NCBI GenBank assembly: GCA_030704615.1
Contig: CM060731.1
Coordinates: forward strand, 17,174,001-17,238,000
Reading direction: 5' to 3'
Length of the DNA stretch: 64,000 nt
From: Takakia lepidozioides
Lineage: Eukaryota; Plantae; Bryophyta
Positions 1 to 49,800 of the stretch are shown one piece after another (the first letter of the stretch is position 1; each line of letters begins with the position of its first letter). The position numbers and the translations under genes were made by a program. The notes below the pieces were generated by a model. It made no database searches, had not been told where the DNA came from, and saw only the letters and a program-made list of their open reading frames with translations.

Positions 1-3000
1 TCAAGCATGATGCTTGAAAACACCAACAAAATATATGGAATTTTGCCAAGGTCGTCATTTCTGACAAATCTGTCAGCCCATATCCAAGCACTTCCGAACC
101 CAAGTTCCAGAGCTCTGCAGGTACATGTGCCCCGGTTCACCTAATTAATTAACGTGTTGATATAGCGAGAAATATTGGGGTCGTGTAGCAGCCCTGGGTT
201 CTTGCAGGCTGCACAGAGAATTGTACTAGTTATACAGCCAATCGTGCTCGATTCCGACGCCCTTTAGTCCAAGTAAGTGGCTCGGAAAAATACTAGGCCT
301 GCACATCGAGTGCACATCTTGTGGTCTCCAGCAGTCACATCATGTGCATGTCCTTTGGACCCTACCATCTGATGGCAATGATCGCTACAGCCAGAGCTGC
401 ACATCAGAATGTGAATACTAAAATCCGTTGACTTCAGGAAGTACGTGAACAGCCCATCTGAAGTGAGCACGAGCAGTGAATCGGTTTGGTGATGAAACAT
501 TTTATGTTTGATCTTACAAATCGTATTGATGGAGATCGCGTGTGCAGGCTTACATCTCAGTCCTCGAAGAGATACAAACTCGCACCTCAGATGGATGGAA
601 GGTGATTCCTCTGGATGCTGTGAAGAGCCATTTGGAGTCGCTCCCTGGCAGCTCAGTCAAGGACGCACTGGCAAATGATGTAGCTCGCTTACTTGCGCAC
701 CGTCACAAACAACGGTGGCTTCTGGCAACTGAGAAACCACACGACACCTTGAAGGTACTGTAACATGTAACTTCAAGGACCTACCGGTTTTCCCTATTGA
801 TCAATTGTCGGTTAAACAGAGCTTCTTTCTCTCTTATAAAGCACCAAATTTCATTTCATTTCTAAGTCTACCAGTTGGCACATATGCCAAGTTACATACA
901 TGAACATTCTATGTATATCATCTATAGACTTACTGTATTGCAACCTCTATACATCTTCGCACATCTGCTTTTGTATGATCTGAATAGCTCTCCTCTTGAA
1001 AGCATTGGTGCGCGGTGTTTCTTAGGCCCTGGAAGACGTCCTTGGATTCTAGTAGTCTTTCAAGTTGACCACCTGGTTGGTCTACATCATCTTTGGCTCT
1101 ACAGTCCGTTCCACCTACATGTCACATGTCTAGATCACATGTTTACGTAGATGCCTATATGTTCAGAAAATGCAGATCAATCGTTCTGGACAGGTTTCCT
1201 CACTTAGCAGCACTCACAACAACCTGAGGATCATGTACCTACAAGGAGGAGCTGTTTCAATGAGCAATCTTGAAAAGAATATTTCTGTACACAGTAAGTA
1301 CTAAGGCTCTTGAGACTAAATCTGTTGGCATACGTGTATGTCTCTCGCAGGGAAAGGAGTTCCAAAATATGTCTATAGTGCCGAGTCAGGATGAGCTTCT
1401 ATCTCGTGAGCATGTTGCACTGCCACTCAACCTTGTTGGTGTGCGCTACACATCGATAATGGAGTATCTCGAGACCCAATTTCTGCTTCTGCGGGAAGAT
1501 TTTATTGAGCCACTCAGAGCCGGGATTAGGTCCTACCAAATGCCAGCCGTCCAGGCCAGCCATGACAGGGTCCAAGAGTTGCGTGTCTATCGTCATGTCC
1601 AGCTCGTAGGACTTCGATGTGGTTCTTCTGGCATGGAATTCCGTTTGTCCTTCAGGGTCAAACCTTCAAGGGGAGCCTCCCGCTTGGAGGCTGATAAAAG
1701 TCTGATGATGGGATCTTTACTATGTATATCTCAGGATGATTTCCAGTCAGTCCAAGGCTGTGCAATAGTGGCACATCGAGATGCTACGGCTGTAGCAAAT
1801 CCTGGTATGATTGATGTCCAATTCATCGGACCAGCAGATCAGTGGTTACTGGACATAGGCAAGGTCTATGTTATGGTGGAGTCCTCCTCCGCATATTTCG
1901 AGGCATATTCACATGCATTGAAGTGTTTGCAGCAGGAGGAAATGGAGAATATCCCATTCTCAAGGTACCTCGTCAACCTTGAGCCCATGGTGAATCCACC
2001 CAGCTATCTTCTGGCCAGTAAAAATGGCCTACAGTACGATATGAGTTGTATTTTTCGGGAGTTGGAGGGAGATGTCGGGAGGAAAACCCTGAACGTGTTG
2101 GAAGAATGGCCGTCATTCACCTCTTCACTTGACTGCAGCCAGATGAGGGCGCTGAGACATGCATTGACAAAGGAAATTGCCTTAATCCAAGGCCCCCCGG
2201 GCACAGGCAAAACCTTCATAGGGCTGCTTGCAGTGCGAGTCCTACTAGCAAACCTCTACAGCTCAGTCCTACAGTCCTCTTCTATCAAGGATAGTCCTAG
2301 CTTTTCCCTGGAAACTGAGAATGCTCTAGTTCAAGGACCCATCTTGGTGGTTTGTTTTACCAACCATGCACTGGATCAGTTCTTAGAGGGCATTTACAAG
2401 TATGAGAAGTGCCTTATCCGCCTTGGTGGTAGAAGCAAAAGCGTGACTTTGCAGGAACGCAGCTTATATGCAATTCAACAACAGCAAAGGTCTACCAGGA
2501 CCCTTGATCGTGTCCACCTCCATGAACTCACTGGATCAAAAAGGGAGAAAAGCGAACTGGAGAAGCGTTTGACTGAGCTTCTGAAACTTATGGAATTGAA
2601 AGTGGCCACACAGGAATCTCTGCACGGTGTGGCAACTGAGGACCAGATTGCCCACTTATTCTTTAATGATGCAGATACGGAAAACTCCCATAAGACTGTG
2701 GAGGTCTGGCTTGAATCTCCATATGACCCCGGCTACCGCATGAATCTTCAAGCTTTGAGGGACACTGTGGGTGATGAGACTGACCTGGAAGATCGCATGG
2801 ATATTTCTAATCCCTACTCAGCATTGCAGGATGAAGTAGACACCTGGAGTGATGGAGAGTATAGCTCCGAAAGCAGCTCAACATCTGCAGAAGCGTTTGG
2901 ACCCGACCACACGAACAGTACCCTGCAGTGTGACCCAGTTGCAGGTACAGTAGGTGCAACCAAGATTCTTTTCCTGGGCACACTTTCTAGATCAGATGTC

Positions 3001-6000
3001 CAGTTCGGTTTTGGCAGACTCAATGGGTATTTGTCACCTAGGGGGACCTAAAGAGTGCTCATTGTGCAAAGCCCAGCAGGAATGTATAGATCCCCCAACT
3101 GTAAACTTGTATAGATCTTTCTTAAAAATGTACATAGATCAATTGCTAGATCATGTCATCGGCCGACATTTTAACTCATCGTATTGTTTCTGCTACACGT
3201 CCTAGGTGCAGTAGTTTCCGAAGAGCGGAGCCCTCTCGATGAATGCAACACATCCTCCGGACAGGATCGCATTGGATATGCAGGCCCGGTTCCAAATTCT
3301 GCTGGAGCTGGAGGGGTATCTAGTAATGGGAACAGGCAAGAGATTGAAATTCATGTAGAGGATCAAGTCGATGTGGACATAAACCGTCCAGAAGAGGATT
3401 TCTATAGAGCAGAATTTGGGACTGATCAAGGTTGGCGAGAGGATGGTCAAGCGTATCCCCTTCAAGACATAATTGATTATCCCGATGTTTGGCATCTTGA
3501 CAAAGCATCTAGGTTTCGGCTACACAATTTCTGGTTGGAAGAGATAAAACAAAAGGCTTCGACAGAGATGAAAACTGTTCTTTCCCAGTATGAGACGGCA
3601 TGCCGAGCAGTAGCGACAATCGACAGTGAAATCAGTCTGTCTCTTCTTCGAAAGGCCCGAGTTGTGGGACTGACCACAACATCAGCAGCACGTCACCATG
3701 AATTACTGGTGGCTTTGAAACCAGAGATCATTATTGTGGAAGAGGCAGCAGAGGTTCTGGAGGCCCACATTGTGGCCTGCCTCAGCCCTTTCACGAAGCA
3801 TCTCATATTGATTGGGGATCATTTGCAGCTGCGTCCATCAGTTGCAGTCTATAACCTTGCTGTCCAACATAAACTGGACGTGTCCATGTTCGAGCGCCTG
3901 GCAACAGGTAACATATTTGAATCCAGATGCTGTGATTTTCTTCTAGATGAGTGTGCAACCACAAATTCCCGACTCCTTTCTGTTGCAATATTTCATATAA
4001 TCAATATTTATGATTCTAATCTGGAGAGCCAGGTAGAGAAATCCGAGCTCGCATCGCTTAAGCTGTCTGTATCTATAGAACTCTGTGTAACCGGTAGGCC
4101 CCTCTAGTATTGAGCTGAACCTGACACCTCGCCTGTACACTTGCTAGTAGTGAATCTGACTTCCGTGCATTTGAGCCTGACGTAGATTTTCAGCTGTCAT
4201 TTCCGGTACGTCACTGAAGAAAATAAAGTGATTTTGTCAGGTGGTGTTCAGCATGTGACACTGGAAATGCAACGGAGGATGCGACCTTCCATTGCTACCC
4301 TCATCACTCCCATCTACGGCCCCCGGCTTCAGAATCACCCCTCTGTTTCCACTCTCGACGATGTTAAAGGAGTCAAAAGTAATGTGTTCTTTTTGGATCA
4401 CACAGCTGAAGAGAGCAGCAGCGGCGATGCTGGGAGCAAGAAGAATGTGGAGGAGGCTAAGCTTGTAGTAGAGTTCTGCTCCTACCTTCTAAAGCAAGGA
4501 TATAGCCCCAAGCACATCACCATTCTCAGCATGTATTCTGGCCAGATTTCGCATATTAAAGGCCTTCTTGCAGACAGAAAGGTGGGAGTGTCGAAGCATA
4601 CGTTGTTCACAGGAACCGAAACGTCTTCTGCAGACCTGTCTGTGCCTCTTGAAGGCATACATGTCGTGTATCCAACAGTCACCAGCGTGGACAACTTCCA
4701 AGGGGAAGAATGCGACATTATTATATTATCTCTTGTAAGAAGCAACCAGCATCCCGGAAAGGATCGTGGCTTAGGAAAAATTGGCTTCGTTGGTGTGGCT
4801 AATCGCGTGTGTGTTGCGCTGTCGAGGGCACGCATTGGGCTGTACATGTTTGGAAATTCCAAACTCCTCTGCCTGAGGAGCAGCCTGTGGGAGGAAGTGA
4901 TAGACAGCCTCAACAGCAAGCAATGCTTGGGCCCCGAGCTTATTTTGAGCTGCCAAAATCATCCAGAGACAGAGACGAAAATCACCAACGCTATCGACTT
5001 CAACCTTGTACAAGATGGGGGTTGCAACAGGCCTTGCCTGTACCAGCTAGACTGTGGGCACGCCTGCCCGAGGAGGTGCCATCCCGGCGGCCATGAAAAT
5101 GTTGCATGTCCAAAACCATGTGCTAGAAAGCATGAGCTCTGTGACCATAATTGCATATCTCGGTGCCATGGAGAGAGTGAATGTCCCCCCTGTGTCAAGA
5201 GGGTGTCAAAGTTACTCTCTCAATGTGGGCATTCTGCTACCATCAGCTGCTCACAAGCTGTGGATACGTATGTCTGCCAACGTCCATGTGAGGAAAAGGT
5301 GGACTGCGGTCATCCCTGTCCAAGACGATGTGGAAACCAATGTGTAACCCCAGAGACTTGCAAAGTAAGGATTGAGAAAGTCCTAACATGTGGTCACACA
5401 GCTCAGGTGCCCTGCTCTCAAGACATTGCAGTTTACCTCTGCCGTGAGCCATGCACAAGTGTGCTTCCTGAGTGTGGGCACTTCTGTAAAGGGACTTGTG
5501 GCACCTGCCAGCAAGGGATTAGCCATGTTCCGTGCAAGGAAAAGTGTGCAAGAATCATGCCATGCTCGCACCCCTGTCAGGAAGGCTGCTTGCTTTCTTG
5601 TCCACCCTGCAGTCGAAAGTGCCAGAGGCGTTGTATGCACAGCAATTGCTCACATAAGTGTGGCCTTAACTGCCGACCCTGCATTGAGCCATGCGCCTGG
5701 CGCTGCAAGCACTTTCGTTGCCCACTCAGGTAACGCATAAACGGCATTTATTTAAGAATGGCATATGAGTTTGTCTAGGTTATCACAGAAGATGGGCTTG
5801 AGCAGAAGTTGGCAGCTGTAACTCAAACGGCTTACATGAGTCTCATAGGAAGCCCACTGTATACGCGGGTCCTTGTCGAATGCCTAAGTTTTGTTGATCT
5901 TAACATCCTAGAAGCATCAAAGCGTGTGCTCTAAGTTTTAACAGCAATTGCCCTTCGCGATTGTTGATAGGTGCTACCAAATATGTCGTCGGCCACGCTG

Positions 6001-7594
6001 CGATGAGCCATGCAAGAAGACCTTACGGAAATGTAAGCATCCATGTTGCGGACTGTGCGGGGAGCCATGCCCCAAATGCCGGCTCTGTCACCCTGAAGAA
6101 TTTGATGTCATAGCGCAAATGAAGCTCAGTGAGTTCGACGAAGCCGATCGTTTCATACAACTGCAGGATTGCGGACATGTGTTTGAAGTCACGGGCTTGG
6201 ATGGTTGGATGGACCATGACGACGCAACCTCCGTGCCTACAGACGCTGACAGTATTAGCGCCTCTGTCGCTATGAAGCTCAAGCAGTGGTAAGTCTCATC
6301 CTTTGCTATGGCAGAAATTTGAACATTTCTAACGTACTTGTAAGCAGTACCTCATAATAAACAGTGCCAACGAGATACTCCTGACCGAATTGTGATCATA
6401 GGGCTTCATAAGCAACCCACTCGTCAACATCTATATTGTTCTCTGGCCAAAGTAACTACTGCAAATCTCGTTGCAGCACCTTCTGCAGGAATCAGTTTAC
6501 TGTATGACCCAAGAGCATTTTGTTAAGGGTGGATATCTGAAGCTCTGGTAGATCCCTCTTCAGGAATTACAGGTCTACTTGCTATGAAGTGGCTCTGGTT
6601 AGATATTGTATCTGCACAAGCATTTCATTGATCAATATGTTGCATTTACATAAGGAGATCAGTAAATGCTCAGGACTAGCATCAATCTGAAGAGTATTCA
6701 ATATAATTTCCTGCACACTGTGCACGAAACAAAGTCTGCATGAAGATCATGTTAGTAACTAAAACTGTTTCTTTTTGCAGCCCAGCCTGCAAGACACCTA
6801 TCCAGCAGACATTCCGCTACTCGTCTTCTGTGAAGACAAGGCTGGCTCAAATTGATGAAATAAAGCGAAGAATCTACGCCATTGAGATGACAAGGGAAGG
6901 GAACGAATTGCTAAAGACAGCAAATCCTATAACGGCGCTTGGCCATTTCATTGAAGCTCTACGGCAAAATCCAGAGCTTCTACAAGCCCACTTTGGCATG
7001 GGTTGTGCACATTCTGCCCTTAATCAAGGAAAGGAAGCCATCTCTTGCCTCAGCCTTGTAGTTGAGAGAAGCCCTCTTGCAGCTGATATGGTGACCAACG
7101 TGATTGGAACTTCCAGTAGCTCATGTGCAGCACTTGGTTCCAAATTGAACAACATCGGGGTCGACCGTTCAGTCACGAGGGCTGATAAGGCGCTAGGCAT
7201 CCAGGCAACTTTACAGTGGGCACAGTGCCTCGGCAGAATGGGAAATCTTAGCCAAGCTTCGCTCCTGTGTGATGTGGTACTCAAACATGATCCTGAATGC
7301 AAGGCAGCTAAGACAATGAAGGATCAGGCAGCTGAGCGCCACATTTTTAAGCAGGTCGTTGAAATCATGACTGCGGAAGTGGGAGGGCGAGGGCACTGGT
7401 ATAGTTGCCCCAGTGGCCACTTTTATGTGGTGGGAGAATGCGGAGGACCCATGCAGACTTCGAGATGTCCAGACTGCGCGGCAGTGATCGGTGGCCAATC
7501 TCACAGACCTGCAGAAGGCAACACGCATGCCACTATCGATGGGAGCACTCACGCTGCATGGAGTGATGCTGCTGGTCTTCATGGTCCCCCCTAG
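1..7594 (+). CDS. ZNFX1: NFX1-type zinc finger-containing protein 1-like (SF1 RNA helicase, NF-X1 zinc fingers, RING-like region, TPR, RZ finger); 5' end lies outside the window
   Basis: Phase-consistent GT-AG exons: <1-120, 189(or 192)-272, 548-754, 1351-2944, 3206-3907, 4241-5729, 5971-6288, 6781-7594(TAG). Helicase motifs QGPPGTGKT, CFTNHALD, VEEAAE, IGDHLQLRP, SMFERL, QRRMRP, VDNFQGEE, NRVCVALSRAR. Cys/His NF-X1-type repeats (CGHxCxxxCH) at about 5020-6090. CGHVF...CPAC spans the last intron. C-terminal GHWYSCPSGHFYVVGECGGPMQTSRCPDCAAVIGG is an RZ-type finger. Confidence 0.92.
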
Positions 7595-8914
7595 TTCACG
7601 ATATGTTTTTGGATGTCAACTTATTCTGCGGTCAGACTGAGCCTACAAGTCTGTCCAGATGCATGTTGATCTTGACAAGTTGAGGCGGAAAACTCTTCAT
7701 GAATCATCTAGACTTGTGAGCGCTCTGGACAGAAGTCTTTGATTGGCAATATTCTTGACTGCTTAAGACTGCTTAAGACTGAATCTAGTTGAGTAGAAGT
7801 TACAGTACTGCAGGGTCTATAGTTCACGTTCGTCCTCTATACACAGGAAGTTCTGATTGGCAAGACTGTTTTAGTAGAAGTCAGATGAATCTACTGGTGC
7901 TATATAGAGGGTCTTTGGATCCTCATGCCTTGAATTGTTTTGTTGTATAAATTCGAAAAATCGACAAGCATATGATGTTGATGAAAAAAACAGGATCATT
8001 GCCTGCATGAGTTGGAAATCATGAATCCGTGCATTGCGAATTCGTTTGCTTTGACACTCGCATCCCCTGCATTCTCCATCAAGTTGGCAACATGCAGGCG
8101 GGATGGTAAAAAATTGCCCTTTCCACGTGCAGCTGCTTCTGTTGGGGGCATGCAGGTTCTGGATTTGGTGAGGGTGTTTTATGCAGCGGCGAGAGACCAA
8201 GTGAGAGTGAGAGGGGATGATGGCAGGGAGTCCGAACTGGGAGTTTTTTTGGTTCAGAAAGCTTGGGCTGAGGGTCAAGGAAGGGCGTTGGAGATGCGAA
8301 GATGGAATGAAGCAGGCTTGGCCATTGATCAGGCACCTTCGTAGGACGATCGGGCCAACGAGGAGGTTGAAGTTACCGTTGCCTCTCACCGTATATTGCG
8401 GAGCTCTTCCTCCGCCTCCATCCCCACTAACCCAAAGTTTAGTTTTCTTTTTTTTCCCTTTTTTTTTAAAAACATTAACCCCTAAAGGACTAGCCCGTTT
8501 TTGGTGGGCCCCTTCAGTGATGAACTGTATGAAAGTAATCCTACCTACTTCAGGAACCTACTGGAAAAATTTCACTTGATTTCACCGTGTCATTACGAAG
8601 ATTATAAAATAAAATGCAAGCTGTAAATGTTTACTGTGCTCTAGTTTTGGAGTGAAAAAATGGTTTGACCAAGCAATTGGCCTGGCGAAAATGAATTTTC
8701 ATTGATATAGCATACCCAGATTCTAATTGCCTGGCATGTATAGCACCTTGGGCCAAAATTCCAAAACCAAATTCCAAAACCACATGAGGGTTGCTTTGAA
8801 TGGGAAAATTGGTGGGTCAAAAAGACCTTCCATTACAATTGACCCCAAATCTGCCTCAAATGTGTCCAAATTTTCATCACAAGGTGAATTAGTTTGACAG
8901 GTTGTCAGCCAAGA

Positions 8915-9250
8915 AGCGGTTTCATGGAGTGTGATGATCACAGGATATGTCCAGCATATGTGTGGGATCAAGGGGCTCTGGAAACCTATGAGCAGATGAT
9001 GTGGGTGGCAATGAAGCCCAATCAGGTGTCGCCCCTTTGTGTTTACAATACATGTGCAAGCCGGGCAGCCTTGGGAAGGGGCAAAGAGGTCCATGCTGAT
9101 ATCATGGGGGCTGGAATTTTTCCAAGTACCAATCTGAACAACACCCTCATGGACAGGTACGCCAAATGTGAGAGCATCAGAGATGCAAAGGGAGTGTGTG
9201 ATTGTAGGGCTGAACGAGATGTGGTGTCATCGAATGCGATGATTGCAGGT
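8915..9250 (+). pseudogene. Degenerate PLS-class pentatricopeptide repeat (PPR) fragment
   Basis: VSWSVMITGYVQH, then a frameshift, then ALETYEQM..MKPNQVS..CAS.AALGRGKEVHA..NTLMDRYAKCESIRDAKGV..ERDVVSSNAMIAG. These are typical plant PLS-PPR motifs, but truncated and frameshifted. Confidence 0.8.
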
Positions 9251-9949
9251 CAGCCTGGTCATGAGGGAGGATCTGGAGAGTGGATCAGATCCATGTGCAA
9301 GGAGCCAGCGGGCTCAATCAGAGGTGCAACTTCGAAAGGAAGGGATGGGCATCACCCAGAGGGTGGGGTGGTGCATGATTCTGTTGTTGCTGGTATGGGT
9401 AAACATGAGAGGACAGATAAGAGTGCTTTGGTGGCTGGATCACAGGTACATATGATTGCCACAACATCAAACAGTCTGAAGCATGGTCAATGCAACAATG
9501 GTGGAAGGCGAGACACCCATGTCAACTCAAAGAAAAGCACTTGCTTGCACTACAGCAAAGAGAAAGGATACTATCCTAACATGAGGCCCAATCCTATGAC
9601 GCTGCCAGAAGGCCAGAGTACAAGTCTGGGAACCTTGGATCATCCAGAGTCTAGCCAGCCTGTTTACGCTTCTTTTAAATAATTAGCATATCTTGTGTAT
9701 GTTGGAATTGCAGGTACTCTTATGAAAACAAAGCTAGGCAACAAGTATGCCTTGTTGTCCATTCACCATCAATCTGGAGAGGTGGGAGTCAGCCCAATGG
9801 CAGCCGACGTCTTCCCTCACGTCTCAGTTTCTGGAAGGAGAGCTGTGTTGGCAGAGTCAGCAGAGGGTGACTGGGACAAAAGCTTTTGCCTGGCTCTCAT
9901 GGGCCACATCCTATCCATGAAATTCAAGGCACACCCATCTGTCCATGTA

Positions 9950-10827: not shown

Positions 10828-11327
10828 NNNNNNNNNNNNNNNNNNNNNNNNNNNNNNNNNNNNNNNNNNNNNNNNNNNNNNNNNNNNNNNNNNNNNNNNN
10901 NNNNNNNNNNNNNNNNNNNNNNNNNNNNNNNNNNNNNNNNNNNNNNNNNNNNNNNNNNNNNNNNNNNNNNNNNNNNNNNNNNNNNNNNNNNNNNNNNNNN
11001 NNNNNNNNNNNNNNNNNNNNNNNNNNNNNNNNNNNNNNNNNNNNNNNNNNNNNNNNNNNNNNNNNNNNNNNNNNNNNNNNNNNNNNNNNNNNNNNNNNNN
11101 NNNNNNNNNNNNNNNNNNNNNNNNNNNNNNNNNNNNNNNNNNNNNNNNNNNNNNNNNNNNNNNNNNNNNNNNNNNNNNNNNNNNNNNNNNNNNNNNNNNN
11201 NNNNNNNNNNNNNNNNNNNNNNNNNNNNNNNNNNNNNNNNNNNNNNNNNNNNNNNNNNNNNNNNNNNNNNNNNNNNNNNNNNNNNNNNNNNNNNNNNNNN
11301 NNNNNNNNNNNNNNNNNNNNNNNNNNN
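10828..11327. other. Assembly gap (exactly 500 N)
   Basis: Run of N. The round size suggests a scaffolding join of unknown true length. Confidence 0.99.
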
Positions 11328-12000
11328 GTCACAGCCCCAAAGGCCTCAGGCACGGCCTGTACAGCCCCTCACAGGCCCATCACAGCCCCACAGGCCAGGG
11401 GCACAGCCTGTCCACAGCCCCTCACAGCCCGTCACAGCCCCACAGGCACACTGGGCACAGCCTGTCACAGCCCCGCACAGCCCGTCACAGCCCCACAGGC
11501 CACTAGGCACAGCCTGTCACAGCCCCTCACAGCCCAACGGCCATGGGCACAGCCCTGACATGCCCCTCACAGCCCGTCACAGCCCCACATGCCAACTGGG
11601 CACAGCAATCAAGCCCTCACCGCCCCAAAGCCACGGGCAAGCCTATCACAGCCCCTCACAGCCCGTCACAGCCCCAAGAGGCCTCAGGCACGGCCATGAC
11701 ACAGCCCCTCACAGGCCAGTCACAGCCCAAAGGCCACAGGCACGGCCTATCACAGCCCCTCACAGCCCGTTCACAGCCCCAAAGGCCTCAGGAAGGCCTG
11801 TCACAGCCCCTCACAGCCCATCACAGCCCACAAAGCCATTGGACACAGCCTATCACAGACCCTCACAGCCCGTCACAGCCCCACAGGCCACTGGGCACAG
11901 CCCCGCACAGCCCGTCACAGCTCGCCACAGCCTGTCACAGCAGTCACAGCCCAACAGCCACAGGCCGGCCTGACACAGCCCCTCACAGCTGTCCCAGCCC
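11328..12000. repeat. CACAGCCC-based minisatellite with about 52-bp higher-order units
   Basis: Dozens of (T)CACAGCCC(C) sub-units grouped as cacagcccctcacagcccgtcacagccccacaggccactgggcacagcctgt. Confidence 0.95.
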
Positions 12001-17000: not shown

Positions 17001-17329
17001 TTAGCCCGGCCATACTCGATCCAAGAATTTTCTGCTCATCGCATAAGTTGAAAGAGGGAGCCACATTACAATCCCCGCACAAGCCAACATCCCTCCACCA
17101 CACACCCATTCAAGAAAGCATGATCACACCACAACATGTAATAATTAAGGAGGTCTCTCATGCAATCAACCGATTGCCCCAGTTACAAGCAACAGGCAAA
17201 AGACAGAATTCGGACCTGAAAGCGAATCTTGATCACGTCCAATGGCGAGACTACGGTACGGGAAAACCCCCCAGCGCTTGCCCCCGCCACCGCATCCACC
17301 CACGCCCGATGCCGGTGCTCCATCACCAT
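14074..17329 (-). pseudogene. Mitochondrial thiamine diphosphate carrier (SLC25A19/TPC-like); frameshifted in its last exon (pseudogene or assembly error)
   Basis: Seven GT-AG exons encode [37 protein letters not shown]../[35 protein letters not shown]/..[46 protein letters not shown]. There is a 2-nt deficit at about 14188-14192. Confidence 0.8.
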
Positions 17330-19205
17330 CCCCTCCGCACAGCACCAAACCCTTTGCAGAGCAATACAAACCTCCCCACTTGGTGCGGCACTCGCTGTGC
17401 CCTTCCAGTCACAATCAAACCTGCATGAATCAGAGCCCATGTATTACCTTCCTGGAGGTAATACAAAATCCGACCTCCCCCACTACTCTCGGCAGACTTG
17501 GCAAAAACTCCGTCCTTTTTTTTTGTTTTTTTTGGATTAAAGGGATGAAGTCAATTTGGATTTGTCAAACTTTCCTTTTATTTTAATTTATTTTCAAAGA
17601 TAGATGAGGAGCCTATTGTCGTCCTCAAAGCCCATTGGGTCCGACTCGATTCTTCAACAGAAAGGTGGAAGCCGGTGTAAATAAGAGCTTACTACCCATA
17701 CTTAATAAGCTTCAACTCTTAAAACTCTCAGGGCACCGTCCCTGTTCCGGGAAGGAAAAAAAAAAGAAAAAAAGATAGACTCAAAAAACACAAAAAACAA
17801 CAAAAACAACAAAAAAAAAGACTATGGTCATGCGGGCTGGTCCCCCACACAGGAGAGCACCTCTTTTAGGGGAAAACACATGCACACCCACACACACACA
17901 CGTCTGTAAGGTTTTTGGTAAGAACTAAGAACATGAGTCCATCGATCCAGAAGTTTGAATTTAAGCTCTGGTTATAAACGTAACCTATTTCGGTAGGAAG
18001 GGGTTGGTCCACCGCAAACTCAATAGCATTATGGGGGGTTCTCTTCATATGGCGCGATTGAGTGGCCCAACACCTCAATCTCATTGTCTAAAGGCAAGGT
18101 GACATATTATCCTTGCTTTGTACTGAAAGGATTTGTTGAGGGTATCAATCTGACATGTTAGTATATATATAGTAAGCAAGGTAGTTTGTTTTGTTTTTGT
18201 TGTTTTGTGTGTGTAGCATTCTCCCAAACCGCAAGGCCTCTGCTAGGGGTCTGATACCGCTGAAAATCCCTCGCTGAGTCAGGGTGCATCGAGGCGGGTT
18301 CATATTTGGACCTGCCGTGTGTGAGATATCTTCAATGGTCCTTTGCACCATCGTGGCTTTGCGCATTATGGAGTCCACATCATCTCAACCAATGCAGTTT
18401 CCTTCATTCGTGAAAATCACATAATTAGAGATTGTCTATCTTTGTTGCCCCAATCAGAGCCCCATACCAAGCCGTTGGTCTGGTTGAACTAACACTCTCT
18501 TACAGGTAGTAGTCCCAAACTCTATCTATGATTAATGCATGATAATAAGCCTCGAAATGGCAAAATCACCCTGTCTCCAATGTCATGCTTAAATAGTAGT
18601 TTCACGAATGCACCGTCAAGGCATGAAAAATAAAGATCACACACAACCACGCACCCTCCTTAATCCACATTTTTACTAGCTGTGGCAAATGAAAACCCCA
18701 CTCTTCTTTCCGATTTATGGGCAAACATTAGGTACTTTACAGAGGTGGTCTTCACAAAAAAACACTGCACTGCTTCATTGCATAAGAAGCAATTTAGTGG
18801 TGTCATACGCATCCTGAATAGCCCAAGAAGTGGTCTCTACTCTCGAGACATCATGGCTTACATCAGGAAATTGAAAAGCATTTCCATTTTCCTAGAAGAT
18901 GTCACCTTAACTTGTTAGTAGAAGAAGTGCATATACCTTTGGCACCAGCTCCACGAGAGAAGCTCTTAGTCTTCTACATGCCTTTTATTTCTTTTTGTGG
19001 CTTTGTGGTTTCTTGATCACACCCTATCTTGGTCGGCACCCCGACCCTCCCTCAACCGGAGTATCTCTGCATTTAAAAAGGCAGCATACTCCGTTCCTAT
19101 GCAGTTTTTCTTTTTCAAGGAAGCGAGGACTGCTCTATCTACACTTGGTTTCTTCAGACACACCATTGAGCCCTGACAAACTTTTTTGGTCTTTTTGGTG
19201 GGTAC

Positions 19206-43800: not shown

Positions 43801-46800
43801 TCATATGTGGTGAAAGCAGTTTCAAAATAATAAGCTGGGAGATTACCCTGCCATAACAAATCCTCAAGTCAACTTTTGGAACATGAATGAAACAAAGTGA
43901 TTTTCCTGAAAATGCTGAAGACCAACCTCATTTCAGAGCTCCAAGTGTTTATGCTCTTCTTACCAGGCTATATCTATCAGAACTTGAGTTTTCGGTCGAT
44001 TTTTGGTTTCATATTTGGTCCCTTTGGGCTTCCAAGGAGTGTATTAAATTATGTTCTGCTTCTGTAAGGTTGGCCTGTACTAGAACAGGCAAAAGATAGG
44101 AGGAATCTTCTTAAAACTCCCAATCGTCCCAGCCGTCTCAGAAACCCTTCTGAATTCCTCTAGGAATTTATTAAGAAGATCACCTACTCTCAACATCGAA
44201 AGGGAAGGGTAATTTGCATTTGCTTTCACAATGATCACTGACTGTAGGGAATTCCTGCAGGCTCTGTGAGTGTATCTAGAGAGTTCCAAGCATTGGACAG
44301 CCAGATGCTTAGCTGGAAGCACCAGATATTGCAGTTTACATGTCAGGACTATCTTTCACAACATGACTCTTGGAAAGATCCTCCAGACATGACCTAACAT
44401 AGCGGCACACACTTCAAGAGCACATAAAACATGGGTATATGAGAGTATGAATTCTGGCCTTGGGGGCATGAGTTATGAGCAGAGTGTTCAGTGATGTGAT
44501 TGCTGCAAGTGAAACCTCCTTGCTGCCTTTGATCACGCTCTCTCCCACAAATGAGAGAAGAGAATCCCATCCTGCATCATGCCGTGGTGACCTATCCGTC
44601 CTAAGTGAAAACAGACCAGAAATGTATTCTGGGTAACTGACCATATAAAGTACTAGTAACTAACTACCACAAACGCTCTTTCAAGCTATTAAATGGTGGC
44701 TAGTTTTCTCTGGTAAGAGGGAATCAAACATGTGGATTTCAAGGGGTACCAAAAGGGTAAAGACACAGCCCTGAGGGACCTTTCCAATGATTAACAGATG
44801 GAAACCATATTACACCTTATTTGAATCAAGAAATTCCCTACATGTCCAATGACGAAATGTCATTCGGTTCCAAAATGGCACTTACCCTTAGTAAAGTTGT
44901 CCAATGCCTGAAAAACTTTGAAATAAGGTTTCAGAAGGCGACTTAGTCCATTCAGTACTAAGACCAAAGTTTCGTCCCACTGCTTCTGAGCTGTATTCCG
45001 GCTGGTAGTCATGGCCATAGGAAAAGATTGTGCCAGCAAACAGATCCACAATTAGATGAAAAGGCAAAGAGTAACTTAACATAACTTCTCACTACACATC
45101 CAGAGCCTAAAATACATTTTGGATATCATTGATTATGTACCCTTGTACCCGTGCTGCATCCGGTGCCTGCCAATCTACAGAAACCCAGGGCTTCCAGGCT
45201 AGAGGTCAACAGTCTGATCTATCATATATCTGTGTCCGACATCATGCCAGCAATAGAAGAAAGACCATTCTGTAAATAGTACAAGGTATAAAAGCGCAGA
45301 GGCCTTTAGTCATGAGGGTTCAGGACGCTTTGTAGCTTACCTGCATGAGAACTCCTTGTTTGTACAACCTCTGGGGTATCAACTGGGTTGTTCTATTGTA
45401 CCGGACCCTCCCATTGAAGTAATAAATACATTCTCTTCACCCACAACAACTACACATGCCGGAAACTTTTGTTTGTCCAATTGATGAATCCTATGGCTGT
45501 ACATGGTAAATTCTTCAACAGCATCGCTTAAGAAAGCAATGCATTCGGGCGCCAGTTGTACCCCAAATTTCCACTGCACACACAACTGTCCTTCTACAGC
45601 ACTGATGGTGATAGACTGTAAACAAGCATAGACTTACATACCTATGATGAACAAGCATGTGAACAGGCTTGCCCCCTTCAATTCCAAGCTCCTTCCCATG
45701 CCACTCATCCTTTGAGGAGGTTGCAGCCTGTGCAAAAAACATAATAGTCCACAGCATGGGTGAATGAATGAAACACCATGCCCTTATGAGACCACAGGGG
45801 AGGAATTTGACATATTGATAATTGATTGATATTGTGCCCTTACCAAGTGCTGTACGGTATCCACCAGAGGAAACACGAGGTTCCATAGGCACTCCTCCCA
45901 CATAGCTTTCGAGAACTTATGTCCATGGCTGCTGAGAGACTGGAAGAAGGTACGAATAGCAGAATGTCGAACCTGGAGCGAACAAGACATCATCAGCATT
46001 ACCCTACAGATCACTTTCCTAGTTGAATACAAAATCCAAAGTGGCTGGAGCTTTCTAATTTTCCTCAAAGCAAAATCGGTGCTTGATAGCTCATGTTTTA
46101 ATCTCCTGTTTGGCTCCCCATGATGAGTACAATACAGCTGGAAGTTTCCTTGCTAGCTATGGTTGTAAGGCTTCTTTAATCTCCCAAGGTTCCTTAGTTG
46201 TTGGTTGAGTAAGCTTTGTAGTAGAACTGACCTTCCCAGGTTCACAAATGTCAGTCTTTGGCTCAGCAGCCATCTCTTGTTTAGCAGGAAAAATGCAGGT
46301 GTCAAGTGGCTTCTGCCTCTTCTTCCCTTCCTAATGAGGTTTCTTTCTACCACTCTCTCACCTGGTTTATATCAAGGTAAGTCCCACTATGGGCCCCTCA
46401 CAGAGGTAGTGTGTGTTCCCTCTTGCTCTGCCCAAACTGTGCATGAGGTACATGGTCACAAGGCTATGGCAAACAACGTCATGATACATTCTCTCACCTG
46501 GCTTTTGTTTGTCTCCGCATGCAGGCCAAGGGTACATTTTGGCTTGCCTTGATGAAGGTTTTCATTTTACAAACTCTGAGTGGGAAAATACCCATTCATT
46601 GTACCAAAAGAAAAAGGAAAAAAGAGAAAACAAACAAATGGGGTTTGTTCTGGGGTGTTTAACCTTATCCTCCAAGTAAATTAGCTATTAACATAAAAGA
46701 AGGAAACCATTTCTTAGCTGCAATTGACACCATAATGTCACTGCAGAACAACTCCATACATTCCAGGTATAGGCAGATTGTGCTCTACCTCTGGCCTCTC

Positions 46801-49800
46801 GTCTGTTCCCAGACCTTGAATAACACCATAGACAGCCAAAAGCAGAGCCTCGTAGTCCATGTCAGGCCTCTGGTTTGATGAAGCTGGAGCATTCTCATCT
46901 TCCACTTCACTGGCAATCTCCCCACCGCTTCTTCTTTCATCTATACCTGTAGTACTTAGCTGTTTGCTGTACAAGTCTATAGGACTCAGACGTGGACCTG
47001 CAACCCAACCCACCATAGAGAGTTCACTGTCACTGAGGAGCTCAGTCTCTTTTGCAATTCGAAGAAGTCCACGATAAGAAGAATTTGGAGCTGTTGGACC
47101 ACTTTGAGTGTTAAGCATAACTGCCAACCTTCAGCATAAAAGCATGCTGGTAGGACGTCCTTATAGGGCCTCCACGTGTGTTGAATAAAGTCGCATAGAG
47201 GATCAAAACACAAGAATGCTTCAAACCATAGCAGCCTCAATGATGAGAAGGCTCAATGAGCCAAACACTGTGCTTACTCCTGGATCAGGGCTTGTCCCTC
47301 TAAACAGCTGCAATAGGAAGAAAAAGGAAGCAATTTCTTGCATCTGCAGCAGGCCTATTGGACCAAAAGGATGACTGTTTGCCAGAAAATCAGTACATTA
47401 CATACATCACAAAAAACTACACAAGCCCTTGATGTCATATACAGGGACAAAGCAGAAACACATACTGATCCCTGGAGTCTTGCAGCTATTGAAACCTCTT
47501 GCGAAAAAATCAGCTGTAGTCCACAGAGACCCTATGGCTGTCAAGCTGATATTTACATCAGTTCTCTGTGCGCCATATGCTCCTGCCACTTCTATACACC
47601 TGCAACACATTGCTATATATAAGGAGGATTTCAAGAAAGTGCAGATCAGAAGCAGGTGGAAGGATGGTTCTTTACTTCAGCTTTCCATTGGCAGCATAGT
47701 CTAGGATTGCACGCCAGGCTTTCAAATGTACACCTACCCACTCAAGATGTAATGCTTACTGGCAAGCCTGGGGCAAAAAAATGTTCCCAGCTATAGTCTA
47801 TCTAGCAGTCTCTTGGGAAAGAAAACGTAGATCGGTGGGGTGCCAGAAAAACAGAAAGTGTCCATCTTCAACAGAGAATGGGATGATGTACACAAACTTA
47901 CGTTTCTAAAGAATGTGCAGGTATTGAAAGGAGTCCATCATTCATGATGACACGAACATTCTGTAGTCATCACCAACAAATATTAGCTATGCAATTGGTG
48001 GCAACAAAGAGGTATTTATCTATTTTATAAAGCTATACAGAACGCATCACAGGGAACATAGAGCACCAAAAGATAATTAGCTTACAGCACTGAAGTTACT
48101 AATCACAGAGCTGATCTACTACAGCATATATATTAGTGCCTAAAACTGGGCCTGAACCCTATTCTTGAGGTCTGCGGCTCAGTCATGAAAGAAGTTGTGG
48201 CAGCTCAAGACAAGAAGCGGGCCTGTCCCAGCGACTAAAGACTGAAATTGAAGCCTTGCAGCTGAATTATGACAGGTACAGAGACCTGGTTTACAGATGC
48301 CATCACTGTCTGTGGTCACTTTCAACTTCATCATGTTCGAAATATATTCTCACCTGGAATCCCAACGGAACCAGATCTCTCTCTGAAGCATTGGCAACTA
48401 ACCTGCCAGACGAATAAGGCAGTCAGCGATAGAGTTAAACAGTGGACAAACAGCAGCCTGGTTCTATGTTAATGACAATCAAGGCCAACATAAAACAGTT
48501 TAGTGCAGAAGGTTTCTGAAAGATGGTAAAGCATGAGCTGGGTGGTACAACTACAACAAGGTAGTACTAACAGACTGCCCACCATGCTCTACTAACAGTC
48601 AAGGCCCTCCAAGATAGTGCAACTATGAGTGAACATCCATTTCAAGCCATTGCAGATTTCCATTGAACTGCGGAGAAAGGAAAGTACATGCCTGTCTAGA
48701 AAATTGTCTTTACCTTAGCAACTCCAAAATGCTTGGCCAACTGTGATATAATTTCTCCCCATGCCTCTGTGCCACACACATAACCAAAAATGATGAAAGC
48801 AGACCACGTACTATCCATCTCAAGAGAGAGATAAATCACATTGCCCTCACGTCACACTCCTATCCCACAACTAAGCAAAGGCTACCCACAAGTACTGGCC
48901 AACACCAATGTCTGTGGTAGATATTTGTGGCCAATACAACCTGGAATGTTAAGGATCAAGACATGAATCCCAACCATGATTCTAGACTGCAACAATTGGA
49001 GAAGGACTCTGTTAGATAGTGCTCCGTCTCTTTCAAATCTGTGTGAACTTTAAGATGAGTTGAACTTGTTCTAAACAGTTTGTGCCAATACTAGTGGTAT
49101 CATTCATACAAATACAAAGTGAACAACTCTGCTACATAGTCTAGACCATGCAGTGGCTGGTGCCTACTCTCCTAAACTGTCCAGAATGCAAATCCCTCAA
49201 ACCTCTGATTGTCCTGTACTCTTGGCGGTCGCGCGCCCGCAAAGCCGAGATACAATGCATGACAATAGCCTGATAGGACACCCTCGAGGAGACTTTCTAA
49301 AGATAGGCCTTGCCGATGTTCTTCAAAGGTAACTACTGGCACTACCACAGGAAATCGGAATTGCCACAGTAGAACATATACAGAACATGTATTGAGGCTG
49401 CATGATAAAGTCATATCACTCAATATCCGGTCCAACAACAAACAAGTGGGAAAAACATTAAACGATTTACCTCCAGTACACGCAGTAAAAGTCTTAAAGC
49501 ACCAGATCGCACATCTGTGGTTTGGCCATAGTTATAGAGAGTGCCGATAGGCAATATCAATGCACATTCAAAGGAAATACTCTGAAAAAACTGCTGCTTG
49601 TTGCTGCAGCTTGCTGCCCCGGTTGTCTCAAATTCCTCCTCCACTCTTGAGACGTCAGCAACTGAGTCACTTCCATGAAATTCTGCATGGACTACCATTT
49701 CCCCAACTCTAGCAGCATCTTGTTGGAACTTCACACATCCCAAGACACCACAAATTGCTCGATCCAAGGCATCAAGAGCGACAGCACGCACCAGTTGGCT

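What the first reader, a model, noticed from the sequence alone, without database searches (positions are those of the whole stretch)
1..7594. Intact ZNFX1-type RNA-sensing helicase/E3 ligase in a land-plant genome
Seen: all SF1 helicase motifs, a long NF-X1 finger array, a RING-like region and a terminal RZ finger lie in one uninterrupted spliced ORF. Established: animal ZNFX1 binds RNA and acts in antiviral immunity and (in C. elegans) transgenerational small-RNA inheritance. Fission yeast Hrr1 is a related helicase in the RdRP complex, and RZ fingers (RNF213, ZNFX1) catalyse non-canonical ubiquitylation. To my knowledge Arabidopsis has no gene with this architecture (its SDE3 and UPF1 lack the fingers). 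Inference: this plant lineage may retain, or have acquired, an uncharacterised ZNFX1-based RNA-silencing or immune pathway.
Basis: partly seen in the sequence, partly recalled or inferred. Interest (0 to 1): 0.78.

Follow-up and report, generated by a model that had tools for sequence, protein, structure and literature searches.

The report
Plant ZNFX1 missing from flowering plants
This non-flowering land plant carries an intact gene for ZNFX1, a protein that in humans senses RNA and tags it with ubiquitin; algal-to-conifer relatives share it with an added plant-only repeat domain, flowering plants have apparently lost it, and it likely works as an RNA-triggered ubiquitin ligase, though nobody has tested that in a plant.

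Summary
Seven exons joined at six GT-AG introns give 1,747 open codons. The model aligns end to end with Ginkgo, Cryptomeria, Adiantum, Calypogeia, Selaginella and Mesotaenium proteins. These form one streptophyte clade (100/99); grouping the window with animals is rejected. So the gene is not contamination and not peculiar to this lineage. No named angiosperm or moss was among the 120 listed hits of any of three searches. Helicase, RNA-binding, Z-RING zinc and RZ catalytic residues match human ZNFX1; the E2-contacting Phe1575 and Tyr450 do not. A three-repeat TPR before the RZ finger is plant-only (17 of 27 against 0 of 292), and many orthologues begin with PB1 and CCCH domains. Databases already name some of these proteins ZNFX1, but my literature searches found no paper on plant ZNFX1. 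Expression and function are untested. Verdict: new variant of a known family; the scan's only earlier ZNFX1 note concerns an oyster.

The parts
1..120 (+). Coding exon A, open at the window edge; part of the N-terminal helical (armadillo-type) domain
   Evidence: Open frame; aligns with Ginkgo, fern, liverwort, lycophyte and Mesotaenium orthologues. Armadillo label is inferred from position relative to human ZNFX1.
548..754 (+). Coding exon B; end of the N-terminal helical domain
   Evidence: AG/GT ends, phase 0; aligns with orthologues
1351..2944 (+). Coding exon C: Pfam ZNFX1 domain (about 1567-1887), Walker A lysine (2209-2211, human K625), start of the acidic 1C insertion
   Evidence: Pfam ZNFX1 and AAA_11; 9q9z alignment; coordinates
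3206..3907 (+). Coding exon D: end of the 1C insertion, Walker B EEAA (Glu at 3742-3744, human E1007), motif III, Tyr matching human Y1043 (3850-3852)
   Evidence: Pfam AAA_11; 9q9z alignment; acceptor could be 3206, 3212 or 3215
4241..5729 (+). Coding exon E: second helicase lobe (Phe 4786-4788, Arg 4804-4806 and Arg 4825-4827 match human F1210, R1216, R1223) and most of the NF-X1 finger stalk (from about 5023)
   Evidence: Pfam AAA_12; 9q9z alignment; coordinates
5971..6288 (+). Coding exon F: last fingers and most of the Z-RING (Miz-like) E2-binding domain; Cys 6170-6172 and His 6176-6178 match human C1591 and H1593
   Evidence: Alignment with vertebrate ZNFX1; the Cryptomeria orthologue models as a RING-like fold
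6781..7594 (+). Coding exon G: last two Z-RING cysteines, long helix, three-repeat TPR (about 6890-7330), RZ finger (about 7352-7531; catalytic Cys 7439-7441, His 7502-7504), stop codon
   Evidence: Pfam TPR_19 and ZnF_RZ-type; RNF213 match E 2e-10; the Ginkgo orthologue models as TPR, Z 16.7, rmsd 2.4 over 132 residues
121..6780 (+). Six predicted introns: 121-547, 755-1350, 2945-3205, 3908-4240, 5730-5970, 6289-6780
   Evidence: All GT...AG; phases 0,0,1,1,2,2 keep one frame; not confirmed by RNA

Best explanation
This is the intact, 5'-truncated land-plant orthologue of ZNFX1, part of a streptophyte clade with a plant-only TPR domain, and it likely acts as an RNA-activated two-step ubiquitin ligase in RNA surveillance, probably antiviral. 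Shown here: the open spliced frame, the domain order, conservation of the ATP, RNA-binding, zinc and catalytic residues, and the clade. Inferred from human ZNFX1: long single-stranded RNA plus ATP would occupy the helicase groove and relieve inhibition by the acidic 1C insertion; the finger stalk would carry the signal to the Z-RING, which would bind an E2~ubiquitin and pass ubiquitin to the RZ cysteine; the protein and its bound RNA would then be ubiquitin-coated and clustered. Speculative: the TPR would position the RZ finger or recruit a partner, and the PB1 domain seen in orthologues (not in the window) would drive polymerisation or hand-over to autophagy.
For: Residues matching human K625, E1007, Y1043, L1051, F1210, R1216 and R1223 are present (using a constant offset of 87 in chain 9q9z; roles from bioRxiv 2025.09.05.674436 and 2025.10.14.682297). 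The RZ finger has all four zinc ligands, the nucleophile and the general base at exactly the human spacing (+4, +11, +20, +23, +32), as do 14 of 27 streptophyte relatives. All listed top fold matches of the Cryptomeria Z-RING model are RING-type E3 domains (best Foldseek E 0.03; best Z 5.9, rmsd 2.6 over 62; MYCBP2 entry 6t7f Z 5.3). The 1C insertion is acidic (34 Asp/Glu against 8 Lys/Arg in 146 residues). Repeated duplication and loss of the E3 end in liverworts, ferns, lycophytes and gymnosperms is the pattern often seen in defence genes (inference).
Against: No plant ZNFX1 has been assayed, as far as my searches show. Human F1575, essential for E2 binding, is kept in 22 of 22 non-streptophyte rows but in 0 of 18 streptophyte rows, whose loop is two residues longer; a conserved Met/Leu may or may not replace it. 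Human Y450, which stacks on RNA, is Met here and was not Tyr in most of the plant rows shown. No counterpart of the human plug helix could be aligned; only the acidity is shared. The RING fold scores are modest (Z under 8). C. elegans ZNFX-1 and fission-yeast Hrr1 work in RNA silencing, and the worm protein lacks the RZ finger, so the family has more than one job. The two Marchantia copies found lack Z-RING and RZ.
Confidence: 0.55

Rival explanations
1. It works mainly as an RNA-silencing cofactor like Hrr1, SAD-3 or worm ZNFX-1: it holds targeted RNAs for an RNA-dependent RNA polymerase and Argonaute to amplify small RNAs, with the E3 end serving turnover or condensate control.
For: All genetically studied non-vertebrate orthologues named in the papers read act in RNAi. 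Plants have RdRP-based amplification (established knowledge). CCCH fingers and PB1 in orthologues suit RNA granules (inference). Marchantia and a second fern clade keep the helicase but drop part or all of the E3 end.
Against: The full Z-RING and RZ set is kept from Mesotaenium to conifers, whereas worm ZNFX-1 lacks RZ. Angiosperms have rich RdRP pathways yet no orthologue was found. This rival and the best explanation are not exclusive.
Confidence: 0.28
2. It is a housekeeping RNA quality-control helicase-ligase, UPF1-like, acting on the plant's own faulty or stalled mRNAs rather than on foreign RNA.
For: UPF1 is the next-best solved match of the helicase. Human ZNFX1 is activated by ssRNA without sequence preference.
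Against: Apparent loss in angiosperms and mosses and frequent duplication or truncation are unusual for a core housekeeping gene (inference).
Confidence: 0.12
3. This copy is unexpressed, decaying or a non-plant contaminant.
Against: 1,747 codons without a stop across six frame-keeping introns; catalytic residues intact; placement among land plants 95/92; window plus animals rejected at p-AU 2e-46; PLS-class PPR remnant 1.3 kb downstream on the same side of the gap. Orthologues are encoded without breaks on contigs barely longer than the coding sequence (1,741 aa on 5,947 nt; 1,939 aa on 6,397 nt), which suggests spliced transcripts (inference).
Confidence: 0.05

Closest known systems
Human ZNFX1 (PDB 9q9z; bioRxiv 2025.09.05.674436 and 2025.10.14.682297)
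   Same: Domain order N-terminal helical domain, SF1 helicase with EEAA Walker B and large 1C insertion, NF-X1 finger stalk, Z-RING, RZ finger; ATP, RNA-binding, zinc and catalytic residues.
   Different: A three-repeat TPR replaces the animal region between Z-RING and RZ; the F1575 loop is altered; Y450 is not kept; orthologues add N-terminal PB1 and CCCH domains; plants have no interferon or MAVS pathway (established knowledge).
Database-annotated streptophyte ZNFX1-like proteins (Selaginella, Ginkgo Gb_08232, Cryptomeria LOC131075241, Adiantum L7F22_015804, Ceratopteris KP509_04G085400, Calypogeia, Riccia, Mesotaenium)
   Same: End-to-end alignment at about 42-52% identity; same clade; same Z-RING, TPR, RZ end.
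   Different: The window protein nests in none of the sampled lineages, so it probably comes from a plant group without a named entry. I found no paper on any of these proteins.
S. pombe Hrr1, Neurospora SAD-3, C. elegans ZNFX-1
   Same: Same helicase family; RNA-silencing roles known.
   Different: The fungal orthologues are said to lack the animal-type zinc-finger region and the worm protein lacks RZ. I did not have these three sequences in my trees.
RNF213 RZ finger
   Same: Exon G matches it at E 2e-10 with the catalytic Cys and His.
   Different: RNF213 is an AAA+ ATPase with no SF1 helicase; only the 45-residue finger is shared.
TPR co-chaperone domains and the TPR/U-box ligase CHIP (STUB1)
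   Same: The plant TPR models as three repeats plus a capping helix like Sti1/HOP, SPAG1, OM64 and STUB1 (Z 15.5-16.7), next to a U-box/RING-like domain.
   Different: Identity is 13-22%, and these Z values are near what any helical repeat gives. The carboxylate-clamp residues that bind Hsp70/90 tails (positions recalled, not from a call) look mostly absent in the alignment, so chaperone binding is not implied.

Membership tests
ZNFX1 | UPF1-like SF1 helicase with Walker A lysine and deviant EEAA Walker B | tested here: met
   Pfam AAA_11 and AAA_12; K625 and E1007 matches in 9q9z alignments
ZNFX1 | Pfam ZNFX1 domain and a large 1C insertion | tested here: met
   PF25396 72.6 bits against cut-off 27; long insertion between the helicase halves
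ZNFX1 | Acidic plug helix in the 1C insertion | tested here: inconclusive
   Insertion is acidic but no reliable alignment to human 828-836
ZNFX1 | RNA-contact residues F1210, R1216, Y1043, Y450 | tested here: met
   Three of four kept; Y450 is Met
ZNFX1 | NF-X1-type zinc-finger stalk after the helicase | tested here: met
   Aligns with the 9q9z fingers; 56 Cys and 17 His in 276 residues. Pfam zf-NF-X1 itself was not hit.
ZNFX1 | Z-RING (Miz-like) domain with four zinc ligands and linchpin | tested here: met
   C, H, C, C present, linchpin Lys; RING-like fold in an orthologue model
ZNFX1 | E2-contacting Phe (human F1575); a functional residue of the animal-type Z-RING | tested here: not met
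   Phe-Gly pair in 22 of 22 non-streptophyte and 0 of 18 streptophyte rows. This marks the plant variant; it is not a family-defining feature, and whether E2 binding survives is untested.
ZNFX1 | C-terminal RZ finger with catalytic Cys and His | tested here: met
   PF20173 85.4 bits; human spacing exact
ZNFX1 | Complete N-terminal armadillo-type domain | tested here: inconclusive
   Only its last 100 or so residues are in the window; no genome is held
ZNFX1 | RNA- and ATP-stimulated E3 activity | not testable with these tools
   Needs biochemistry
Hrr1/SAD-3-type RdRP cofactor | Physical and genetic link to RdRP and Argonaute | not testable with these tools
   Needs pull-downs and small-RNA sequencing of mutants
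UPF1/SDE3-type plant helicases | Closer to UPF1 or SDE3 than to ZNFX1 | tested here: not met
   ZNFX1 E 8e-68 against UPF1 E 2e-13 for the same exon; SDE3 itself was not compared
Hsp70/Hsp90-binding TPR (CHIP, HOP) | Two-carboxylate clamp residues | tested here: inconclusive
   Fold matches; clamp positions only recalled and read by eye

The most novel reading that the evidence does not exclude
Non-flowering plants own an animal-style RNA-sensing immune enzyme that flowering plants threw away: a PB1-CCCH-helicase-Z-RING-TPR-RZ protein that is switched on by viral RNA, passes ubiquitin through an RZ cysteine onto itself or the RNA, polymerises through PB1 and delivers the particle to autophagy. 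It would be the first RZ-type ligase and a direct RNA-sensing antiviral pathway parallel to RNAi in plants.
Probability: 0.3. Interest if true: 0.82.

Novelty: new variant of a known kind. Interest (0 to 1): 0.52.

Why it matters
Plant antiviral RNA sensing is described almost wholly from flowering plants, where RNAi dominates. ZNFX1 was shown in 2025 to be an RNA-activated two-step ubiquitin ligase, and one of those papers calls it conserved 'from invertebrates to mammals'. A catalytically complete version across algae, liverworts, lycophytes, ferns and gymnosperms, apparently lost in angiosperms, lets one ask in Ceratopteris whether this chemistry is ancient and whether its first job was immunity or small-RNA amplification. 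The plant-only TPR and the rebuilt E2-binding loop are natural variants for dissecting the mechanism. The score is held down because the family is known, was reported in most eukaryotic genomes, and databases already label some plant copies.

Tried and rejected
Expression: no RNA holder was listed; two same-species-label runs held next to none of the words. Laid on 1-9000 they covered only repeat and PPR-like sequence beyond 8400 and one 55-nt patch at 2274-2328 with 5 differences; this says nothing either way. Upstream exons and paralogues in this genome: no genome is held. ESM Atlas: both searches gave first hits under 0.9 and no useful taxa. Recent transfer from animals or contamination: rejected. 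Ancient transfer from fungi into streptophytes: the tree puts Mucoromycota/Glomeromycota and Pygsuia next to the plants at only 87/88, and the alternative grouping with animals is not rejected (p-AU 0.137); no Dikarya, chlorophyte, Chara or Klebsormidium sequence was in the trees, so the deep origin stays open. A link to flagellated sperm: considered and dropped, because the gene is in Mesotaenium and Cryptomeria, which lack flagella, and was not found in mosses, which have them (biology from my own knowledge). E2 docking model: not run, no E2 sequence was available. Naming the plant group: the protein is unresolved among land-plant lineages. Literature: ZNFX1 + land plants 0; ZNFX + angiosperm 0; ZNFX + Hrr1 + plants 0; six plant gene ids 0; ZNFX1 + Arabidopsis 25 papers, 24 listed, the two plant papers mention it only as an animal protein; one search was too loose and none of its 30 listed papers held ZNFX1; two searches listed 7 and 2 unrelated papers. 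The library lacks most subscription papers, and bioRxiv supplements are closed; the conservation figures of the two 2025 preprints may include plant sequences that I could not see. Pfam did not recognise the PPR remnant; the solved-structure search did.
Full report
Observation. The + strand from base 1 to 7594 holds seven coding exons (1-120, 548-754, 1351-2944, 3206-3907, 4241-5729, 5971-6288, 6781-7594). All six introns are GT...AG, and the joined frame has 1,747 codons with one stop at the end, against 74 and 103 stops in the other frames. One junction (2944/3206) has in-frame alternatives. Pfam gives ZNFX1, AAA_11, AAA_12, TPR and RZ-finger hits. Human ZNFX1 (9q9z) is the best solved match for exons C, D and E, and RNF213 for the RZ finger. 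Splicing is inferred, not seen: no RNA run holding the gene was listed.

Relatives. Exon E against the 90%-identity collection gave 2,853 hits, 120 listed; apart from cysteine-rich animal proteins, the closest by identity (43-54%) are from Ginkgo, Cryptomeria, Taxus, Calypogeia, Marchantia, Selaginella, Adiantum, Ceratopteris and Mesotaenium. The spliced model aligns with these from its first to its last residues, for example Ginkgo 2-1743 at 44% and Adiantum 1-1743 at 44%, which supports even the two small 5' exons. Two further searches used the Ginkgo protein: its C-terminal 362 residues (129 hits, 120 listed) and residues 100-560 (4,231 hits, 120 listed). They added Riccia and more paralogues. 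None of the three lists names an angiosperm, moss, hornwort, charophyte other than Mesotaenium, or chlorophyte, although an angiosperm orthologue should rank beside the gymnosperms. These searches need shared words and cover only certain lengths. A full HMMER scan of 1.84 billion 50%-identity representatives with a plant helicase profile returned the already known plant proteins at the top. Of its 130 new proteins only two fell in the plant clade: a second Ginkgo gene and an unnamed sister sequence. Of 278 fetched proteins not in the trees, 262 had a non-plant best match; 11 matched plants and 5 had no helicase match, and those 16 were all cluster members of two sequences already placed with conifers and ferns. 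Loss in angiosperms and mosses is thus well indicated but not proven; members hidden inside 50% clusters and short fragments outside the top 150 were not seen.

Phylogeny. On 706 helicase columns of 61 proteins, the window and 26 streptophyte sequences form one clade (SH-aLRT 99). A careful mixture-model tree of 34 of the 191 rows gives streptophytes 100/99, with Mesotaenium sister to land plants and the window inside land plants (95/92) but in none of the sampled lineages. Forcing the window with animals is rejected (p-AU 2e-46). The sister of the plant clade is unresolved: some fungi and Pygsuia at 87/88, and the alternative is not rejected (p-AU 0.137). So the gene has been inherited at least since the ancestor of Zygnematophyceae and land plants; whether it came from the eukaryotic ancestor or by an early transfer is open. 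A degenerate PLS-class PPR at 8888-9304 (E 5e-54 to a synthetic PPR-DYW protein) lies on the same side of the gap, which fits a plant contig.

Residues. I read passages and named sections of two 2025 preprints (2025.09.05.674436: passages, sections 8 and 9; 2025.10.14.682297: passages, sections 5, 6 and 12). They show human ZNFX1 to be an ssRNA- and ATP-activated ligase in which a Z-RING (Miz-like) domain binds the E2 and passes ubiquitin to C1860 of the RZ finger. With a constant offset of 87 in chain 9q9z, the window keeps K625, E1007, Y1043, L1051, F1210, R1216 and R1223; Y450 is Met. The C-terminal part is not in that chain, so I mapped it by spacing and vertebrate orthologues. The four Z-RING zinc ligands are present and the linchpin is Lys. 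The six RZ residues have the exact human spacing. The clear difference is F1575: 22 of 22 non-streptophyte rows keep the Phe-Gly pair, 0 of 18 streptophyte rows do, and the plant loop is two residues longer with a conserved Met or Leu. An AlphaFold model of the Cryptomeria domain (pLDDT 87.7) still matches RING domains, modestly (Foldseek E 0.03; Z 5.9). Both folds were made from orthologues, not from the window protein, because the domain spans an intron.

Plant-only features. A profile of the stretch between Z-RING and RZ, built from the window and seven relatives, scores 105-178 bits in 17 of 27 streptophyte proteins and at most 3.6 bits in 292 others, and at most 5.3 bits in 130 more representatives. 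The Ginkgo model (pLDDT 85.2) folds it as three TPR repeats plus a capping helix, like Sti1/HOP, SPAG1, OM64 and CHIP (Z up to 16.7, rmsd 2.4 over 132); such scores show the fold, not a function. Pfam finds an N-terminal PB1 domain at or above cut-off in 6 of 12 streptophyte proteins scanned (Mesotaenium, two Selaginella, Adiantum, Marchantia, Riccia), weakly in one more, and not in the two gymnosperm proteins; CCCH fingers follow it in several. These would lie left of the window, so they are inferred for this gene. Paralogues are common, and several have lost part or all of the E3 end (Marchantia, a second fern clade, one Cryptomeria and one Mesotaenium copy).

Mechanism. The best-supported reading (0.55) is the human one: RNA-triggered, two-step ubiquitylation used in RNA surveillance, probably against viruses. 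Everything beyond the anatomy is inferred. The main rival (0.28) is an Hrr1 or worm ZNFX-1-like role in small-RNA amplification (passages of bioRxiv 220111 and PMC9276528); the two can coexist. Housekeeping RNA decay (0.12) and a dead or foreign gene (0.05) fit worse.

Novelty. [quoted passage not shown] The word 'plant' does not occur in the main text of six ZNFX1 or RZ papers that I searched by term, and term searches for ZNFX1 with land plants, angiosperm, Hrr1 plus plants, or plant gene ids found nothing. Subscription papers and preprint supplements were not searchable. The scan's own notes hold no similar stretch and one unrelated oyster ZNFX1 note. What looks new is the plant form (PB1, CCCH, helicase, fingers, altered Z-RING, TPR, RZ) and its distribution. 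I rate it a new variant of a known kind, interest 0.52.

Noticed in passing
window 8888-9304 (+): Degenerate PLS-class PPR remnant (E 5e-54 to a synthetic PPR-DYW protein); many similar short pieces in the two laid runs suggest a large PPR family.
   Followed up: partly
window 10828-11327 and about 11328-12000: A 500-base N gap, followed by a low-complexity C/A-rich repeat tract built on 'cacagcc' units.
   Followed up: no
window 17186-17443 (-): Piece of a mitochondrial carrier gene (Pfam Mito_carr E 3e-7).
   Followed up: no
window 45787-47676 (-): Exons of a MON2 gene (Pfam Mon2_C E 2e-6 and 1e-7); the gene probably extends over much of the right half of the window. I scanned 53 of the 113 long frames right of 12200.
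   Followed up: partly
P0290 (Funneliformis geosporum): A database protein annotated with ZNFX1 helicase domains and a full set of Argonaute domains (PAZ, Piwi); a real fusion would tie the family to RNAi, but it may be a gene-model artefact.
   Followed up: no
P0235, P0237, P0269, P0321: An unnamed protist clade near Pelomyxa has ZNFX1 helicases with N-terminal cold-shock domains, some also with CCCH fingers, a separate gain of RNA-binding modules.
   Followed up: no
P0061 and P0065 (Marchantia MPTK1_5g14410 and 5g14460); P0011 and P0012 (Mesotaenium ME000680S09085 and S09086): Neighbouring paralogue pairs; the Marchantia copies found lack Z-RING and RZ, so Marchantia may be a poor model for the ligase function.
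   Followed up: partly
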